Below are positions 6,844 to 12,670 of a stretch of DNA of 64,000 bases, piece after piece; within the stretch, counting starts at the first letter, position 1; each line of letters starts with the position of its first letter. The notes under the pieces are model-generated. The model had not been told where the DNA came from, ran no database searches, and worked only from the letters and a program-made list of their open reading frames with translations. A program made the position numbers and the translations under genes. The DNA lies in assembly GCA_947626895.1 (NCBI GenBank), contig CANQTY010000002.1:6318-70317 (forward strand). The letters are read 5' to 3'. Source of the stretch: an uncultured Bacilli bacterium. Lineage in GTDB: Bacteria > Bacillota_I > Bacilli_A > RFN20 > CAG-449.

Positions 6844-8130
6844 TTAGAGACCTTTTATTTTATTAAATGCTATACAACAAATTCCTAATACCAATCCTAA
6901 AATAAGAGAAACAACACCAAAAATAATATTTCCAGTACCAAAACCCGTGATTGTTCCAGGGACACAAAGTGCAGCTAAAAATCCAAGTAAAACCCGACCA
7001 AAGCTAGGTTTATTGTAACGATATGACATATCATTATAAGAACTCCGTTTAGCACTCCGAATTTGCTTTCGAAATTTAATAAGGTCTTTCTTTAATTGGA
7101 TAAGTTGAGTTTTATCTTCATTCAGTTGCTCAACAATAATTTCAAGTTCAGCAAAAACATGGCTTAAAATCTGTATTAAATAAATTAATGCTTCAATGAA
7201 TGAAATACTATCATTCACCTTTTTTTCAAGTATTTCCAATGCTATTGATTTATTAATTTCTCTTTCAATTGCCAAACAATATTTTGTGTGAAAATCTGCT
7301 TTATTCAAATTATCCATTGTATTTTGCAACATCTTTTGAGAAGCATAACAAAGATCTATAAGCCGATTGCGAAAATCAAATACCAATTTTTTGCTTTTTT
7401 CGTGCTGTCCACCACGGGCTTGTGCGTTTTTTTGTAAGGGTTGAGCGTAGTGGTCCCAATCTTTTAAAACTACTTCCAGTTCTTTAATCTTATCTTGTAA
7501 ATCGGGAGATAATGATTCGCCACTATTGAAATCATCGCAAATGCTTTCAATTTCATTAAAGTATTTATTACATTCATCTTCTTTACTTTGCAAAGTTTCG
7601 CTCATGGTCAATTCATAGTGTGCCATTAACTCATCGATAAAGAAACTTGCAAAATTGCTATTTTTAACGATTTGATTAAAAATGTTTACATGAGTTTCCA
7701 CATCAAAACCATCAAGATATGAATTAGCAGATGAAATACATTCTTGTCTAATCTTCTCCATCATCACAACTATGTCATTTTCACTTTCAATTTGAGAATA
7801 ACCACCTACAAGCCGCGCATCGTTTATTTTATCAAATAATTCGACATTTTCTTTTTCAAACCATAGTCCAATATTAATGAAAATATCTGCTATATTAACA
7901 ATGGTAGGTTTTTGGTTACTATTAACCATTTGTCGAAAATCATGAAAATCGTCCCTACAGAAATATTCAATTTCGTGACGTAATCTTTTTTTGAGATTTG
8001 TTAAATCAGAGTAAGCTTCTTGTACTTCGCTTGTATCGTCAGAAAGTAATTCTTTTTCTTCGAGTAGTTCCTGTAATCGTTCGCTGCTATCAGTCGGAGT
8101 AGCACCGAGAATGGAAAATGCATCAAACAT
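6844..8130 (-). CDS. Coiled-coil protein with a C-terminal TM hairpin. The N-terminus is weakly J-domain-like but has no HPD motif. Candidate membrane-anchored partner of the adjacent Hsp70 paralog.
   Basis: 428 aa. N-terminus MFDAFSILGATPTDSSERLQELLEEK resembles the start of a J domain but no HPD follows. Two C-terminal TM helices (VLLGFLAALCVPG…IIFGVVSLILGLVLGICCIAF). Confidence 0.4.
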   Translation of the reverse strand: MFDAFSILGATPTDSSERLQELLEEKELLSDDTSEVQEAYSDLTNLKKRLRHEIEYFCRDDFHDFRQMVNSNQKPTIVNIADIFINIGLWFEKENVELFDKINDARLVGGYSQIESENDIVVMMEKIRQECISSANSYLDGFDVETHVNIFNQIVKNSNFASFFIDELMAHYELTMSETLQSKEDECNKYFNEIESICDDFNSGESLSPDLQDKIKELEVVLKDWDHYAQPLQKNAQARGGQHEKSKKLVFDFRNRLIDLCYASQKMLQNTMDNLNKADFHTKYCLAIEREINKSIALEILEKKVNDSISFIEALIYLIQILSHVFAELEIIVEQLNEDKTQLIQLKKDLIKFRKQIRSAKRSSYNDMSYRYNKPSFGRVLLGFLAALCVPGTITGFGTGNIIFGVVSLILGLVLGICCIAFNKIKGL

Positions 8131-8260
8131 TTGTTAATATGCTCCTTTCTTTCTTACAATATTTGAAAAATAATTATGTTAAATCAAATAATGTTTGCTT
8201 TAAACTCATTGTTTAAGTTTTTTAAATCAAATTGACTATTTAGTTTAATTGATTTAACTC

Positions 8261-9481
8261 TTATTTTGTTAGACCAGATCCCTTTAGCATCACATCTAAT
8301 TCAGAATCTTCTTTTGGTATTCTAATTTGAAGTAATCTAGAAATAATGTTTTTTAAACTGCTAATATCATTTTGCTGAACATATTGTATTCCTTGAATAA
8401 TAAGTTCATGATAGAGCACGGAATTATTGAAATCTTGGGGATTCTCTGCCATAAAAGAAAAAATAGCTAGGTAAATTTCATCATTGCTAAACATAACTTT
8501 TGCAGTAATTTCACGCATTTGTTCTAATAATTTTTCAGCAGTTGACGAATTCATATCAATTGCTCTTTGCGCACTCTCTTTTAGACTATTGAATTGCTTT
8601 ATCATAGCAGGAGTAGCATTTTCTTCAAATGTAGTAAAATCATGAACAATTGAATCAAGTTCTTGTTGCCAAACCGATGTTCTATTTTCTTGTATAAAGG
8701 CGGCAACAACTCCTTTACTTGTTTGAACTAATTCAAATAAGGTTTGTAATTCTTCTGCACTCAATTCATCACCACGTTCAACATAAGCAATAATTTTTTC
8801 TGCTATATCATCCAATTTTGTATCAAATTGGTTTTCGGTCAACTCGTCAATTTTATCGAGTAGATTTTGTGCTTCATTTAATACCTTTTCGTAATCATTA
8901 TTAAAATCGATTTGTCCACTTAATCTATCATAGCTATCTTTTGCTTCTGTAATTCCTACAGATGGAACAGTGACCTTTGTTTCAATATTTCCACTATCTG
9001 AAAAAGTATATTCGCAGATAATTTCACTTCCGACAGGGATTATCCCGTATTCAAAAGAATTTCCACTAATTGTTATTTCCCCAATAAACCTATTGTAAAC
9101 AATGGGATCAGTAATTTCACCTTCCCAAAGTTTAAAGGAAATTGAATCGGAACTACCTGCATTAATACGCTTCGTCGTTTTGTATTTAACAGTTCCACTC
9201 TTAGGAAGCAAATCATCTTTTTTAATAAGATAATCTAGAATTGGTTTATGAGTTACAGGATCTTCTAATTCTACTCCAACAGAATGAGCACATGGAATTT
9301 TTCCAATATTTATAAGCGTCTTTGTGATGACGATAGTTGAACTTTCTAATTTTATATCAGCACCATTTTCATCTGTACATTGAACGTTAAAATGATTTTC
9401 TCCCAAGTTTGGTAAATCAACGGAAACGATAGAATTACTTGCAAGTTCCATTTTCCACTCATCCAGCCAGTTTCCATACAC
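8261..9481 (-). CDS. C-terminal portion (substrate-binding beta-sandwich plus helical lid) of a non-canonical Hsp70. It is in a different frame from the upstream nucleotide-binding-domain ORF.
   Basis: KLWEGEITDPIVYNRFIGEITISGNSFEYGIIPVGSEIICEYTFSDSGNIETKV parallels the DnaK SBD-beta region (…VLQGER…[31 protein letters not shown]…). A helical region follows. It overlaps the 9352..10728 ORF by 130 nt. Confidence 0.6.
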   Translation of the reverse strand: MYGNWLDEWKMELASNSIVSVDLPNLGENHFNVQCTDENGADIKLESSTIVITKTLINIGKIPCAHSVGVELEDPVTHKPILDYLIKKDDLLPKSGTVKYKTTKRINAGSSDSISFKLWEGEITDPIVYNRFIGEITISGNSFEYGIIPVGSEIICEYTFSDSGNIETKVTVPSVGITEAKDSYDRLSGQIDFNNDYEKVLNEAQNLLDKIDELTENQFDTKLDDIAEKIIAYVERGDELSAEELQTLFELVQTSKGVVAAFIQENRTSVWQQELDSIVHDFTTFEENATPAMIKQFNSLKESAQRAIDMNSSTAEKLLEQMREITAKVMFSNDEIYLAIFSFMAENPQDFNNSVLYHELIIQGIQYVQQNDISSLKNIISRLLQIRIPKEDSELDVMLKGSGLTK

Positions 9482-10728
9482 TTAAACTCAAATTCTAATT
9501 TATTAGCATTTTGAAAAACAACCGCGATTTTAGCCTTATCCGCAGAAGTACGGGCATTATAACGAAATTCCAATCCATACGCGCTAGCCTTGACTATTCC
9601 CTTTTCATTTTTCTGTCCGCCTTTTGTTTTTTCAAAATCAACACTTTCGGCATAGATTGCAGCACCCTCGCTAACCGCTGTCATGGGATTAACATCGTTA
9701 TTCGCAGCAATGCCGAGTTCATGCGACACTTTGTCACGCATAAATTTATATTGTGTTGGTCCCCCTACAAAGACAATACAATTAATGTCTTCGGGTTTTA
9801 ATCCAACGTTTTCAATGACTTGACGCGTTTTTACTATAGTTTCATCAATTTTTGGCTCTATTAATGAATTATATTGAGAACGAGTAACTGGTACTTCTAA
9901 ATATATTTCATTATTATCTTCATCCATGCAATGGATTGCACTTTCATCAAGACGAACAACAGCAGATTCTTGAGCTGATAATTCGATTTTTGCCTGTTCA
10001 GTTGCCCAAATTGCCACACGAATAAGTTTTGCATATTTGTCTTTTATTCTGAAATTTTCTGGAAGATTAAAGTTCTCGTGTAACCATGGTAAAACAACAT
10101 TATCGAAAAGCAAAGTATCAAAGTCACGACCTCCACAAAAAGATATTCCATCATTAGTTAAAAGATTGATTTTGCTACCAACACGCTCTGCAATCGATAC
10201 ATCAAAAGTGCCTCCACCGAAATCATATACTAAAAAGACTCCATTGATATTTTGTTGTTTTGCTATACTCATAATTGCAGCAACAGGTTCTTGTATGAGG
10301 GCAACTTTTTTGATTCCAGCACTAAAAGCAGCTTGTTTTGTTGCATCTTTTTGCATTTGATTAAAAGCCGCTGGAACAGTTATGACAGTTCCTGTTTTTT
10401 CATCGTTACGTACTTCCTCTGGTAAATATCCAAAGAGTGTTCTTAAAACTTCTGCAGAACATTCTTCAGGTGTCATTTCAATATCACCCAATTTAAGCTT
10501 CGTACTTGTTCCCATCAAACGCTTAAAAAGAAGTGTGGCATTATCAGGGTTAAGTGGAGCATTATCATATGCTTTCTTTCCGCAAAACATACCACCACGT
10601 TTTGCTATATAAATCGCACTTGGTGTGACATCATTTTGCTCAGGACTTTTCCAAACACGAGTTGTTTTTCCATCAAAAGACGTAATTGCGCTATTTGTTG
10701 TTCCTAAATCAATACCAATATACATCAT
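9352..10728 (-). CDS. Hsp70-family ATPase, nucleotide-binding domain plus an insert. It terminates out of frame and continues in the 8261..9481 ORF, so this is either a frameshifted gene (pseudogene) or a sequence error.
   Basis: Hsp70 signatures MMYIGIDLGTTNSAI, VYDFGGGTFDVSI and IVFVGGPTQYKFMRDKV. The C-terminal tail CMETGWMSGKWNLQ… looks like an out-of-frame read of VYGNWLDEWKMELAS… from the next ORF. Confidence 0.7.
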   Translation of the reverse strand: MMYIGIDLGTTNSAITSFDGKTTRVWKSPEQNDVTPSAIYIAKRGGMFCGKKAYDNAPLNPDNATLLFKRLMGTSTKLKLGDIEMTPEECSAEVLRTLFGYLPEEVRNDEKTGTVITVPAAFNQMQKDATKQAAFSAGIKKVALIQEPVAAIMSIAKQQNINGVFLVYDFGGGTFDVSIAERVGSKINLLTNDGISFCGGRDFDTLLFDNVVLPWLHENFNLPENFRIKDKYAKLIRVAIWATEQAKIELSAQESAVVRLDESAIHCMDEDNNEIYLEVPVTRSQYNSLIEPKIDETIVKTRQVIENVGLKPEDINCIVFVGGPTQYKFMRDKVSHELGIAANNDVNPMTAVSEGAAIYAESVDFEKTKGGQKNEKGIVKASAYGLEFRYNARTSADKAKIAVVFQNANKLEFEFKCMETGWMSGKWNLQVILSFPLIYQTWEKIILTFNVQMKMVLI

Positions 10729-11138
10729 TCATTATCCTCCAGTTTTTTATTTACTTCATAAATCTCTTTACGAGAAAGGCTCACTGTACCAATTCTAATA
10801 ATATTACCTTCCGACGTTATCACCGTAGGCTCAATTGTCTGTTCCACGATTAACTGATTGGAGACATCAAATTCATCCACATTTAAGGGAGTTACAGGTA
10901 AACCTTCATCGTATTCCCAACCATCAAAAAATCCAAGTTTTAAATCGAATTTTTCCATTAATTCACGAACCTTATTTTCGTGATAGGTATAAGCGGAAAT
11001 ATAACGTTTTGAATCCTCGCCGTAAATTTTTTTTACTGCAGAAGAGAATGTACGCATGAATCTATATTCTTCCACTACAAATTCGGCTATAATACGAAGC
11101 GTTTCCATATCTTTTTTTTCACTATTTTTTATATTCAT
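10725..11138 (-). CDS. Small acidic protein of unknown family whose stop overlaps the Hsp70 start (ATGA). Its C-terminus has a weak, very tentative resemblance to GrpE nucleotide-exchange factors.
   Basis: 137 aa. C-terminal …FDGWEYDEGLPVTPLNVDEFDVSNQLIVEQTIEPTVITSEGNIIRIGTVSLSRKEIY was compared by eye with the GrpE C-terminal beta domain. This is not a confident assignment. Confidence 0.3.
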   Translation of the reverse strand: MNIKNSEKKDMETLRIIAEFVVEEYRFMRTFSSAVKKIYGEDSKRYISAYTYHENKVRELMEKFDLKLGFFDGWEYDEGLPVTPLNVDEFDVSNQLIVEQTIEPTVITSEGNIIRIGTVSLSRKEIYEVNKKLEDNE

Positions 11139-11338: not shown

Positions 11339-12670
11339 TTAATTATTCGTTACTTCCCAATAACCTCGGGTATTCCCAACACGCCTAATATAACCCATTT
11401 CTTTTAATTTATTGAGCATTCTTTGTATAGTTCTTGAGGATTTTTCCATTTTATTAGAAAGAACTCCAATAGAGCTTTTAGGTTGATTTTTTAAGAATGA
11501 TAAAATAATCTTCTCTTCTTCTTTAAGAACTTCTTCTCTAGAATTTAATTTATTGCGTCTAAAATAATTATGACGCAAAAAAATGAAAGAAAAGCCTAAA
11601 GAACCCATAATGTAATCTATACCTACATGATTTTTCTTACATTCTGCATAGACATTTTTAAAACCACTTCCAAATGCTTCAACATCCTCGGATAGATATA
11701 AAGTATCTAGAATTAAAGGATTTCTTATTACAGAATGTAAATCTTCTTTCACAAAATCCTCTGGAGTATATCCAATAGGAAAAGTTCCAGGATTATAGAT
11801 ACTAATTTTACTTGGGTAAATTTCTATACAATGTTCAGTTGCAGTATTATATCGTGCATGAGCAAAACTATTACAAATGATTTCTCTTAAAGATTTTAAG
11901 GGAATTTCAGGTGTTTCTACGCGAGACATATCAATGATTTCTGCTTTCCACATGATTTTTTCTTTGATGTAATCTTCTGCTTCATCCATTAGATCAATGA
12001 TATTTCCCTTGATTCTTCTGATATCTAAAAAAGTATATCTTTCGTCTGTAGCGAATACTGCCATTTTTAAAACAATCGGATTTAAAGATGAAAATAAATA
12101 ATAACAAGCATTAGTTAAATAATTATCTTTTATTAATCCTAATCTTTTTAAAACCATTTCAGGATTATTCCCTATATCTTTTAATCTACCACATTTAGTA
12201 GCCTTTCTATAAAACTTATCAAAAGAATCTAATTTAATATCTTTGAATGTATAATTTGTAAGTTTTTTATCCCAACTACTTTCATTATTGTATTCGAAAA
12301 GTTTTCTTAAATCATTATATGGAATTTTTCTATCTTCATCCGCGCTTCGAATATAAAATATTCCATTACAAGAATAAGGTTTTTCTTCACCATTAAATTC
12401 TACTTCAATAACAGCTTTATCATTAAACATTACACGACGTATGATAGGTGTAATCGTCGGAGTAATTGATTCATAAATTTTTCTAGAAATATCTCTTAAA
12501 GTTGATTCAGTTACCCCTTGACCATTAACCTCTCCATTTGGATAAACACCAAAATAAAGCGTTCCTCTTCCATGTTTGTTAAGCATTGCACAAATGGAGA
12601 TTAAAGCTTCTTTTAATTCACCAGTTGATTTTTTAAATTCTAATGTTTCATCTTCCATTCCTAAATTCAT
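11339..12670 (-). CDS. AlbA_2 (Schlafen-like) DNA-binding domain, HATPase_c_4-like domain and C-terminal wHTH: a putative regulator of the RecG-C-terminal-like class.
   Basis: N-terminal EFKKSTGELKEALISICAMLNKHGRGTLYFGV is the AlbA_2 signature. C-terminal LKNQPKSSIGVLSNKMEKSSRTIQRMLNKLKEMGYIRRVG is a winged HTH. Confidence 0.6.
   Translation of the reverse strand: MNLGMEDETLEFKKSTGELKEALISICAMLNKHGRGTLYFGVYPNGEVNGQGVTESTLRDISRKIYESITPTITPIIRRVMFNDKAVIEVEFNGEEKPYSCNGIFYIRSADEDRKIPYNDLRKLFEYNNESSWDKKLTNYTFKDIKLDSFDKFYRKATKCGRLKDIGNNPEMVLKRLGLIKDNYLTNACYYLFSSLNPIVLKMAVFATDERYTFLDIRRIKGNIIDLMDEAEDYIKEKIMWKAEIIDMSRVETPEIPLKSLREIICNSFAHARYNTATEHCIEIYPSKISIYNPGTFPIGYTPEDFVKEDLHSVIRNPLILDTLYLSEDVEAFGSGFKNVYAECKKNHVGIDYIMGSLGFSFIFLRHNYFRRNKLNSREEVLKEEEKIILSFLKNQPKSSIGVLSNKMEKSSRTIQRMLNKLKEMGYIRRVGNTRGYWEVTNN

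What the first reader, a model, noticed from the sequence alone, without database searches (positions are those of the whole stretch)
9340..9500. Frameshift splitting the Hsp70 paralog into nucleotide-binding and substrate-binding ORFs
The 458-aa ORF ends in an implausible tail (…EFEFKCMETGWMSGKWNLQ…). The next ORF, in the -1 frame, begins …(V)YGNWLDEWKMELAS and continues directly into an SBD-beta sandwich. The switch must occur within a few nucleotides around 9478-9484 (gag ttt aag|tg tat gga). There is no canonical X XXY YYZ slippery heptamer, so this is more likely a pseudogenising mutation, a homopolymer sequencing error nearby, or low-efficiency slippage.
Basis: seen in the sequence. Interest (0 to 1): 0.55.

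Follow-up and report, generated by a model that had tools for sequence, protein, structure and literature searches.

The report
One-base deletion splits Hsp70-like gene
An 821-codon Hsp70-like chaperone gene is cut into two overlapping reading frames because one A was lost from a run of five; an intact copy still exists in the same bacterial lineage, so this is an ordinary, recent inactivating mutation and not a recoding signal or two real genes.

Summary
The two ORFs are real. Both lie on the minus strand: 9352-10728 (458 aa) and 8261-9481 (406 aa, in the -1 frame). They are the two halves of one gene, and every relative examined is a single protein of about 821 aa. That covers 120 database proteins and 80 genomes.

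The break is not at 9478-9484. It is at the A-run 9451-9454, which reads GGAAAATGG here and GGAAAAATGG in the closest orthologs. Adding one A restores 821 codons with no stop.

The A4 allele appears in three further independent assemblies of the same strain. A fifth assembly (ERZ27249631) carries A5 and an intact protein identical to my restoration. The frameshift is therefore real, recent and still polymorphic.

There is no conserved slippery site, no downstream RNA structure and no usable ribosome-binding site for ORF2. This argues against programmed frameshifting and against two genuine genes.

The gene belongs to a conserved four-gene operon: a GrpE-like protein, the Hsp70, an AAA ATPase and a J-like membrane protein. 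This lineage alone lacks the AAA gene. I found no description of the operon, and it is more interesting than the frameshift.

Verdict: an ordinary pseudogenising indel. Interest is low.

The parts
10725..11138 (-). Gene A of the operon: a 137-aa small protein, possibly GrpE-like. It is intact and its stop overlaps the start of the Hsp70 gene.
   Evidence: Homologs lie directly upstream of the Hsp70 gene in 84 fetched loci. GrpE is the commonest weak Pfam match, in 37 of 75 family members, best E 0.002 and all below threshold. hhalign against E. coli GrpE gives only E 0.11.
9352..10728 (-). ORF1, 458 aa. It holds the Hsp70 nucleotide-binding domain, the first half of an extra beta domain (homologous up to ...TGWMSGK) and a 32-codon out-of-frame tail.
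   Evidence: Pfam HSP70 E 5e-57. The profile matches DnaK NBD structures over residues 2-360. The alignment to 821-aa orthologs is continuous up to Lys at 9452-9454.
9451..9454 (-). The lesion: an A4 run (T4 on the + strand) where the intact allele and the closest orthologs have A5. It is a 1-nt deletion.
   Evidence: The window and L005-L007 read GGAAAATGG. L001-L004/L008 and the same-lineage contig L095 read GGAAAAATGG. This is the only indel in the 3162-nt alignment of L095 to the window, which contains 90 homopolymer runs of 4 or more.
9352..9450 (-). Out-of-frame tail of ORF1 (WNLQVILSFPLIYQTWEKIILTFNVQMKMVLI plus stop). It is the -1-frame sequence read in the wrong frame.
   Evidence: Translations. 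It has no counterpart in any ortholog.
9452..9481 (-). Spurious 10-codon leader of ORF2 (VYGNWLDEWK). It is ORF1 sequence read in the -1 frame, opened by a TAA at 9482-9484.
   Evidence: Translations. Orthologs read KCVETGWTSGK here.
8261..9451 (-). The true 3' part of the gene (396 codons from the ATG at 9449-9451). It holds the second half of the extra beta domain, an Hsp70-type substrate-binding beta domain and a long helical domain.
   Evidence: AlphaFold model, pLDDT 81. Foldseek hits to DnaK, Hsp70-x and HscA SBDs, E 2e-9 to 1e-7. pN against the L001 ortholog is 0.078, the same as between two intact orthologs (0.076), with synonymous sites saturated.
8131..8260 (-). A 130-nt AT-rich spacer where every other informative locus carries the AAA ATPase gene (gene C, about 1.35 kb). 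It keeps a Shine-Dalgarno sequence for gene D.
   Evidence: tblastn of the L001 AAA protein finds nothing in the 64-kb window. Only the flanks align to L001. 65 of 87 loci have the full A-B-C-D order. Most of the others are cut by a contig end (L069 is a single unresolved case). Only the window lineage has B next to D.
6844..8130 (-). Gene D, 428 aa. It has an N-terminal J-like domain without the HPD motif, a coiled-coil region and a C-terminal transmembrane segment. It appears intact.
   Evidence: 63% identical to residues 1-429 of the L001 protein. There is no Pfam DnaJ hit.

Best explanation
A single Hsp70-like gene of 821 codons has been inactivated by loss of one A from an A5 run (GGA AAA ATG became GGA AAA TG) at window 9451-9454. 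This is ordinary replication slippage in a short homopolymer of a 30% G+C genome.

Translation from the normal start now runs 32 codons out of frame and stops at 9352-9354. The product would be a truncated protein: the ATPase domain plus half of a beta domain. The 3' part, which encodes the substrate-binding domain and the helical domain, is left without a usable start.

The mutation is recent and not fixed. The intact A5 allele still circulates in the same lineage.

It occurred in an operon copy that had already lost its AAA ATPase gene. It is therefore best read as decay, or selected switching-off, of an accessory cassette.

Shown: the lesion, its recurrence in several assemblies, the intact allele, and the absence of recoding signals. 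Inferred: that the A4 allele is non-functional, and that A5 is the ancestral state.
For: 1. All 120 best database relatives are single proteins of 819-827 aa covering 98-100% of the joined sequence. All 80 genome loci give one in-frame tblastn segment across the junction. Only the window-identical contigs give two.
2. The closest orthologs have A5 where the window has A4. Inserting one A gives 821 codons and no stop.
3. The exact 458-aa ORF1 is encoded on three independent ENA assemblies, ERZ27249252, ERZ27249462 and ERZ27249467. They are at least 99.99% identical to the window over 5-7.6 kb.
4. Contig L095 (ERZ27249631) differs from the window by one SNP and this one A over 3162 nt. It encodes the intact 822-aa P0273, which after its first Met is identical to my restoration.
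5. There is no excess of amino-acid change downstream of the break. pN is 0.078, against 0.076 between two intact orthologs, with pS saturated at about 0.75. There are no further stops. The lesion is therefore young.
6. The A-run is not conserved. Most orthologs read GGC CGC CTG or similar at this point.
7. The 71 nt downstream fold no better than shuffles (z 0.40).
8. ORF2 start candidates have poor Shine-Dalgarno pairing (-2.2, -6.2 and +0.6 kcal/mol), against -8 to -11 for real starts nearby.
9. The same gene is broken at other places in other lineages. L093 has an extra TA unit in a (TA)n run. The Aeromonas plasmid pKAM471_1 has a 5-nt indel near residue 540. L094 has several lesions.
10. 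The AAA partner gene is missing only in this lineage.
Against: - The intact allele rests on one contig at 2.2x coverage, and the other ENA contigs are at about 3x. I could not look at reads.
- Strong purifying selection on the 3' half over the long term, together with an intact allele in the population, is also what a reversible on/off switch would give.
- Loss of function of the A4 allele is inferred, not measured. The A_AAA tetramer would let a -1 slip recreate exactly the ancestral protein at some very low rate.
- The loss of gene C cannot be dated. 'Decay of a crippled cassette' is therefore an interpretation.
Confidence: 0.8

Rival explanations
1. Reversible on/off switching, like phase variation. 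The A4/A5 run acts as a simple-sequence switch that turns the Hsp70-like gene off and on in the population under fluctuating selection, for example cost against benefit of an accessory or defence cassette.
For: Both alleles exist on an otherwise near-identical background, with 1 SNP in 3.2 kb. The indel is the only length difference among 90 homopolymer runs in the compared stretch. The 3' half shows no decay. The operon family travels on mobile elements, which is typical of genes under fluctuating selection.
Against: A run of 4-5 A is far shorter than the tracts of classical contingency loci (usually 7 or more; from my own knowledge). The gene has 8 other A5 and 6 A6 runs that do not vary. 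The run is not conserved even among close orthologs: L009 reads GGT AAA ATG. One intact against four broken assemblies is equally explained by a single recent mutation. There is no within-sample evidence.
Confidence: 0.09
2. Sequencing or assembly error. The true sequence is A5 and the gene is intact in this organism.
For: The lesion is in a homopolymer. The supporting ENA contigs have only 2.6-3.2x coverage. One assembly of the same lineage does show A5.
Against: A4 was obtained independently four times: the window and three SPAdes assemblies from different samples. Those contigs differ from the window at only one other position in about 18 kb, so their error rate is low. A 5-base run is not error-prone for short-read chemistry (my own knowledge).
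Confidence: 0.03
3. Programmed or tolerated -1 ribosomal frameshifting. tRNA-Lys slips back on A_AAA_U (GGA AAA UGG) and restores the full-length protein with the ancestral sequence ...SGKMELAS...
For: The site is a formal Z_ZZN tetramer. A -1 slip there gives perfect re-pairing and exactly the ancestral amino-acid sequence.
Against: - There is no X_XXY_YYZ heptamer.
- There is no stimulatory structure downstream (z 0.40).
- I saw no clear Shine-Dalgarno-like stimulator upstream when reading the sequence.
- In E. coli, tetramers without a stimulator are at background (0.147% against 0.112%), and A_AAA is the weakest of those that respond to a pseudoknot (PMC4066793).
- The site is not conserved, and all orthologs are in frame.
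Confidence: 0.03
4. A genuine split into two genes: a stand-alone ATPase protein and a stand-alone substrate-binding protein that work together.
For: NBD-only Hsp70 proteins exist in other bacterial conflict systems (PMC7159879). L093 also has two ORFs, of 439 and 405 aa, broken 8-9 codons away.
Against: - The break lies inside a predicted beta domain, not at a domain boundary.
- ORF1 ends in 32 junk codons.
- ORF2 has no convincing ribosome-binding site.
- None of 80 genomes or 120 close proteins is split.
- L093 is broken by a different lesion, an extra TA unit. I found it by selecting short C-terminal hits, so its nearness to the window site is a selection effect.
- The intact allele exists in the same lineage.
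Confidence: 0.03

Closest known systems
Canonical Hsp70 chaperones (DnaK, HscA, BiP)
   Same: The ATPase domain has all the Hsp70 phosphate-binding motifs (IGIDLGTTNS, DFGGGTFD, GGPTQ), with Pfam HSP70 E 5e-57. The predicted C-terminal part has an Hsp70-type substrate-binding beta domain followed by helices. The full-length model aligns to full-length DnaK.
   Different: - It is about 200 residues longer.
- An extra beta-rich domain of about 95 residues lies between the NBD and the SBD; this is where the frameshift falls.
- The helical region is much longer, about 220 residues.
- The C-terminal half has no sequence-level match to any Pfam, NCBIfam or PDB Hsp70 SBD.
- It is encoded in its own operon with a small GrpE-like protein, an AAA ATPase and an HPD-less J-like membrane protein.
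Frameshift pseudogenes made by slippage in short homopolymers or dinucleotide repeats
   Same: One base is lost from a mononucleotide run. The two halves remain otherwise intact. An intact allele exists in the same lineage. Other copies of the family are broken elsewhere by other small indels.
   Different: Nothing essential. The only unusual point is that the intact and the broken allele were both recovered from the same study population.
Programmed -1 frameshift sites (dnaX A_AAA_AAG; IS1 and IS3 family transposases)
   Same: A run of A read by tRNA-Lys, and a -1 relationship between the two frames.
   Different: There are four A's rather than a heptamer. There is no stimulator and no conservation. 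Orthologs are in frame.
Phase-variable contingency loci (simple-sequence-repeat on/off switches)
   Same: A length polymorphism in a mononucleotide run toggles the reading frame of an accessory gene.
   Different: The tract is only 4-5 nt. It lies mid-gene and is not conserved. No within-sample heterogeneity was shown.
Hsp70-like components of other bacterial conflict systems (CoCoNuT CnuD; GTPase-centric systems with Hsp70, GrpE and DnaJ)
   Same: An Hsp70 NBD/SBD unit is encoded in accessory, mobile-element-associated operons, sometimes with GrpE-like and J-domain partners (PMC11090510; PMC7159879).
   Different: There is no McrB/McrC, GTPase, tubulin or HEPN gene here. The partners are an AAA ATPase and a membrane protein. 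The ATPase motifs are well conserved, whereas CnuD motifs are described as degenerate.

Membership tests
Hsp70 family | Actin-fold nucleotide-binding domain with the Hsp70 phosphate-1, phosphate-2 and adenosine motifs | tested here: met
   Pfam PF00012 E 5e-57 on ORF1. The family profile matches DnaK NBD structures at E 4e-62 over residues 2-359. The motifs are invariant in the family alignment.
Hsp70 family | C-terminal substrate-binding beta-sandwich followed by a helical lid | tested here: met
   Met at the fold level only. The ORF2 model (pLDDT 81) hits DnaK, Hsp70-x and HscA SBDs with Foldseek E 2e-9 to 1e-7. There is no sequence-level match.
Hsp70 family | Short conserved hydrophobic linker joining the NBD directly to the SBD | tested here: not met
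   The model places an extra beta-rich domain (residues 375-470) and a low-confidence hinge (471-478) between the NBD and the SBD-like domain.
Frameshift pseudogene (recent) | A reading frame disrupted relative to intact orthologs and restored by a minimal indel | tested here: met
   A5 in orthologs and in the same-lineage contig L095, A4 here. Adding one A gives 821 codons.
Frameshift pseudogene (recent) | The lesion is real, not an assembly error | tested here: met
   The same allele is in three further independent assemblies. Raw reads were not available.
Frameshift pseudogene (recent) | Relaxed selection or further lesions downstream | tested here: not met
   There are no further stops. 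pN downstream equals that between intact orthologs. The only hint is one nonsynonymous SNP in L005, K to N at the nearly invariant K494. This fits a very young lesion.
Programmed -1 ribosomal frameshift site | Slippery heptamer X_XXY_YYZ, or an efficient tetramer | tested here: not met
   The sequence is U_GGA_AAA_U. Only the weak tetramer A_AAA is present (PMC4066793).
Programmed -1 ribosomal frameshift site | A downstream structure or an upstream SD-like stimulator | tested here: not met
   The 71 nt downstream fold at -8.9 kcal/mol, against a shuffle mean of -9.9, z 0.40.
Programmed -1 ribosomal frameshift site | Conservation of the two-frame arrangement and of the slippery site among orthologs | tested here: not met
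   All 80 genome orthologs are in frame, and the codons at the site vary freely.
Phase-variable contingency locus | A long hypermutable repeat tract | tested here: not met
   The tract is 4-5 A. The gene has 14 other runs of A5-A6 that are invariant between the compared contigs.
Phase-variable contingency locus | Tract-length heterogeneity within a clonal population | tested here: inconclusive
   A4 and A5 occur in different samples on a near-identical background. Heterogeneity within a sample needs reads.
J-domain proteins (for gene D) | A four-helix J domain with the HPD tripeptide | tested here: not met
   hhalign to J domains gives prob 82.6% for helices I-III, but the HPD loop is deleted. 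There is no Pfam DnaJ hit and no PDB hit. The protein is J-like at best.
GrpE nucleotide-exchange factors (for gene A) | Significant similarity to the GrpE helical and beta domains | tested here: inconclusive
   37 of 75 members give sub-threshold GrpE hits, best E 0.002. hhalign to E. coli GrpE residues 117-195 gives E 0.11. No PDB hit. No structure was predicted.

The most novel reading that the evidence does not exclude
The frameshift sits in an apparently undescribed, widely spread, mobile four-gene 'private chaperone' operon. Its genes are a GrpE-like protein, an Hsp70 with an extra beta domain, a classic-clade AAA ATPase and an HPD-less J-like membrane protein. The operon may be a conflict or defence system. 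On that reading, the A4/A5 polymorphism in a lineage that has already lost the AAA gene would be a natural on/off experiment, reflecting selection to silence a costly or crippled system.
Probability: 0.2. Interest if true: 0.6.

Novelty: already known. Interest (0 to 1): 0.2.

Why it matters
For annotation, the two ORFs should be recorded as one frameshifted gene (a pseudogene allele). They should not be recorded as an 'NBD-only Hsp70' plus a hypothetical protein. The break point needed for that record is 9451-9454.

Biologically the lesion is routine. It does mark a lineage in which a conserved Hsp70/AAA operon is being dismantled: the AAA gene is gone and the Hsp70 gene is now polymorphic for a null allele. 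Intact and broken alleles occur on near-identical backgrounds, so the rabbit-gut samples offer a natural comparison for anyone who wants to learn what this uncharacterised operon does.

Tried and rejected
Rejected by alignment to orthologs.
- Downstream stimulatory RNA structure. None found.
- Independent start for ORF2. The GTG at 9481, the ATG at 9451 and the TTG at 9406 all have poor Shine-Dalgarno pairing.
- A remnant of the AAA gene in the B-D spacer or elsewhere in the window. None found.
- A natural split at this point in other lineages. The search with ORF2 alone against 1.84 billion representatives gave a continuum of N-terminally truncated fragments, not a class. P0125/L093 is a separate (TA)n frameshift. 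P0127/L094 is a multiply broken contig. P0138 lies 56 nt from a contig end.
- Known defence families. PADLOC has no hit for A, B or D, and only generic IetA/TRIP13-type AAA similarity for C.
- NCBIfam. Only sub-threshold DnaK/HscA hits for the NBD.
- Literature searches for an Hsp70 + AAA operon, or for Tn7 cargo carrying Hsp70. Nothing matched. The CoCoNuT and GTPase-centric Hsp70 systems are different.
- Sequence-profile searches of A and of the D N-terminus against the PDB. No significant hit.
- Two scans of JGI metagenome contigs for either allele. No match.
- Phage genomes. Only DnaK-like NBD matches.
Full report
WHAT IS THERE

Both ORFs are on the minus strand. ORF1 (9352-10728, 458 aa) is an Hsp70 nucleotide-binding domain (Pfam PF00012, E 5e-57). 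ORF2 (8261-9481, 406 aa) has no Pfam family. They overlap by 130 nt, and ORF2 is in the -1 frame relative to ORF1.

A hand-joined sequence retrieved 120 listed relatives. All were single proteins of 819-827 aa, 63-88% identical and covering 98-100% of the query. A scan of one genome per species found 296 relatives. The 80 best, from Clostridia to Pseudomonadota, Bacteroidota, Acidobacteriota and others, each gave one uninterrupted in-frame match. The ancestral state is therefore one gene.

WHERE THE BREAK IS

Orthologs read ...EFEFKCVETGWTSGK MALASNSI.... The window's frame 0 reads ...KCMETGWMSGK and then junk (WNLQ...). The -1 frame reads junk (VYGNWLDEWK) and then MELASNSIV... The switch is therefore after Lys-425, not at 9478-9484.

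At the DNA level the closest orthologs have GGAAAAATGG and the window has GGAAAATGG. One A of an A5 run has been lost at 9451-9454. Re-inserting it gives 821 codons without a stop.

IS IT REAL?

The exact 458-aa ORF1 is encoded on three other contigs, from ENA assemblies ERZ27249252, ERZ27249462 and ERZ27249467. These are SPAdes assemblies at 2.6-3.2x coverage. They are 99.99-100% identical to the window over 5.1-7.6 kb and carry the same A4. Four independent assemblies make a random error very unlikely.

The 90%-identity cluster of ORF1 also contains an intact 822-aa protein, P0273. Its contig (L095, ERZ27249631, 2.2x coverage) aligns to window 10779-7619 with one mismatch and one gap. The gap is the missing A. 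P0273 without its first Met is identical to my restored protein.

That 3.16-kb stretch contains 90 homopolymer runs of 4 or more, and only this one differs. The lineage therefore carries both alleles. The frameshift is a real, very recent polymorphism.

RECODING, TWO GENES OR DECAY?

- The run is not conserved. L009 has GGT AAA ATG, and most orthologs have GGC CGC CTG or similar.
- There is no heptamer. The only motif is the tetramer A_AAA. In E. coli, tetramers without a stimulator are at background, and A_AAA is the weakest of those that respond to a pseudoknot (PMC4066793).
- The 71 nt downstream fold no better than shuffles (z 0.40).
- ORF2's possible starts pair poorly with the anti-Shine-Dalgarno sequence (-2.2, -6.2 and +0.6 kcal/mol). 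Real starts in the neighbourhood give -8 to -11.
- An AlphaFold model of ortholog P0001 (pLDDT 74.5) shows the NBD at 1-362, an extra beta-rich domain at 375-470, a hinge, a second beta domain at 482-599 and helices from 601 to the end.
- The break at residue 425/426 cuts the extra beta domain in half, so it is not a natural domain boundary.
- The ORF2 model (pLDDT 81) matches Hsp70 substrate-binding domains (Foldseek E about 1e-9). The whole model aligns with full-length DnaK.

HOW OLD IS IT?

Between the window and its 89%-identical ortholog L001, synonymous sites are saturated (pS about 0.75). pN is 0.036 upstream and 0.078 downstream of the break. Two intact orthologs compared with each other give 0.035 and 0.076. 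The downstream half therefore shows no detectable relaxation.

Together with the surviving A5 allele, this dates the lesion as very young. The only hint of drift is a K-to-N change at the nearly invariant K494 in contig L005. At 2.6x coverage that could be an error.

CONTEXT

The gene is the second of a conserved four-gene operon.
- A is about 125 aa. It gives weak GrpE-like signals in 37 of 75 members, but hhalign gives only E 0.11.
- B is this Hsp70.
- C is a classic-clade AAA ATPase of 450-490 aa.
- D is 430-780 aa. Its N-terminus aligns to J domains at hhalign probability 83% but lacks the HPD loop. It is followed by a coiled coil and a transmembrane segment.

65 of 87 loci have all four genes. 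Most of the others are cut by contig ends (L069 is an unresolved exception, with a 1.4-kb B-D gap and no AAA hit). The closest intact orthologs all have C.

Only the window lineage, including its intact-B contig L095, has B followed directly by D across a 130-nt AT-rich spacer. No trace of C remains there or elsewhere in the window. Loss of C therefore came before the frameshift. The cassette here is already incomplete, which fits decay.

Other copies of B are broken elsewhere:
- an extra TA unit in a (TA)n run in L093;
- a 5-nt indel near residue 540 on Aeromonas plasmid pKAM471_1;
- several lesions in L094.

The nearness of the L093 lesion (8-9 codons away) is a selection effect. I found it by looking for short C-terminal proteins.

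THE OPERON ITSELF

It is cargo of Tn7-like transposons on Shewanella and Aeromonas plasmids. In gut Clostridia it lies beside a serine recombinase or a tyrosine integrase. In the window it sits in the chromosome between a Schlafen/AlbA_2-HTH gene and a BspA-type LRR gene, next to nusA-infB-rbfA.

PADLOC, NCBIfam and Pfam have no specific model for A, D or the C-terminal half of B. Five literature searches found no description. The Hsp70-containing CoCoNuT and GTPase-centric systems have different partners. I could not establish a function.

VERDICT

Sequencing error, programmed slippage and a genuine two-gene arrangement are each unlikely. A reversible on/off polymorphism cannot be excluded without reads.

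The phenomenon is ordinary and scores low. The surrounding operon is the more interesting object.

Noticed in passing
window 6844-11138 (-); loci L001-L092: A conserved four-gene operon, apparently undescribed: a small GrpE-like protein, an Hsp70 of about 821 aa with an extra beta domain, a classic-clade AAA ATPase, and an HPD-less J-like coiled-coil membrane protein. It is complete in 65 of 87 fetched loci across many phyla. PADLOC, NCBIfam and Pfam have no family for A, D or the C-terminal half of B.
   Followed up: partly
window 8131-8260: The AAA ATPase gene that follows the Hsp70 gene in nearly every other informative locus is absent in this lineage. A 130-nt AT-rich spacer with its own Shine-Dalgarno sequence for gene D takes its place. 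The intact-allele contig L095 has the same gap, so the loss predates the frameshift.
   Followed up: yes
L095 (ENA ERZ27249631, NODE_7788) against window 7619-10779: A contig of the same lineage carries the intact A5 allele (822-aa P0273). It differs from the window by one further base (window 7666, in gene D). This gives a natural pair of intact and broken alleles in the same study.
   Followed up: yes
L093:2510-2560 (JGI 3300042590): An independent split of the homologous gene into ORFs of 439 and 405 aa, also in the -1 frame. It is caused by an extra TA unit ((TA)6 where (TA)5 would keep the frame), 8-9 codons downstream of the window's site. The rest of that operon looks intact.
   Followed up: partly
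L091:5995-8492 (Aeromonas caviae plasmid pKAM471_1, NZ_AP026371.1): The homologous Hsp70 gene is annotated as two CDSs. Compared with the 98.8%-identical intact copy on a Shewanella xiamenensis plasmid, it has a 5-nt indel near residue 540. Both copies are cargo of a Tn7-like element (TnsD/TnsE genes adjacent).
   Followed up: partly
window 9221 (contig L005): Contig L005 (A4 allele, 2.6x coverage) has a single nonsynonymous difference downstream of the frameshift, K to N at the nearly invariant Lys-494. It may be early drift of the dead 3' half, or a low-coverage error.
   Followed up: no
window 11339-12670 (-): Directly upstream of the operon lies a 443-aa protein with Schlafen/AlbA_2, HATPase_c_4 and winged-helix HTH domains. 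It gives weak PADLOC hits to pAgo-associated and CRISPR-associated regulator models. It may be a regulator or part of a defence-type neighbourhood.
   Followed up: no
window 10725-10730 (-): ORF1 begins with two ATG codons (MMY...), whereas orthologs begin MY or MF. The Shine-Dalgarno sequence GGAGGA is compatible with either start, so the true start is probably the second ATG (10725).
   Followed up: no
model of P0001, residues 375-470 (window about 9316-9603): The extra beta-rich domain between the ATPase and substrate-binding domains has no counterpart in DnaK. It carries the conserved motif TGW(T/S)SG(K/R). Its fold was not searched separately.
   Followed up: no
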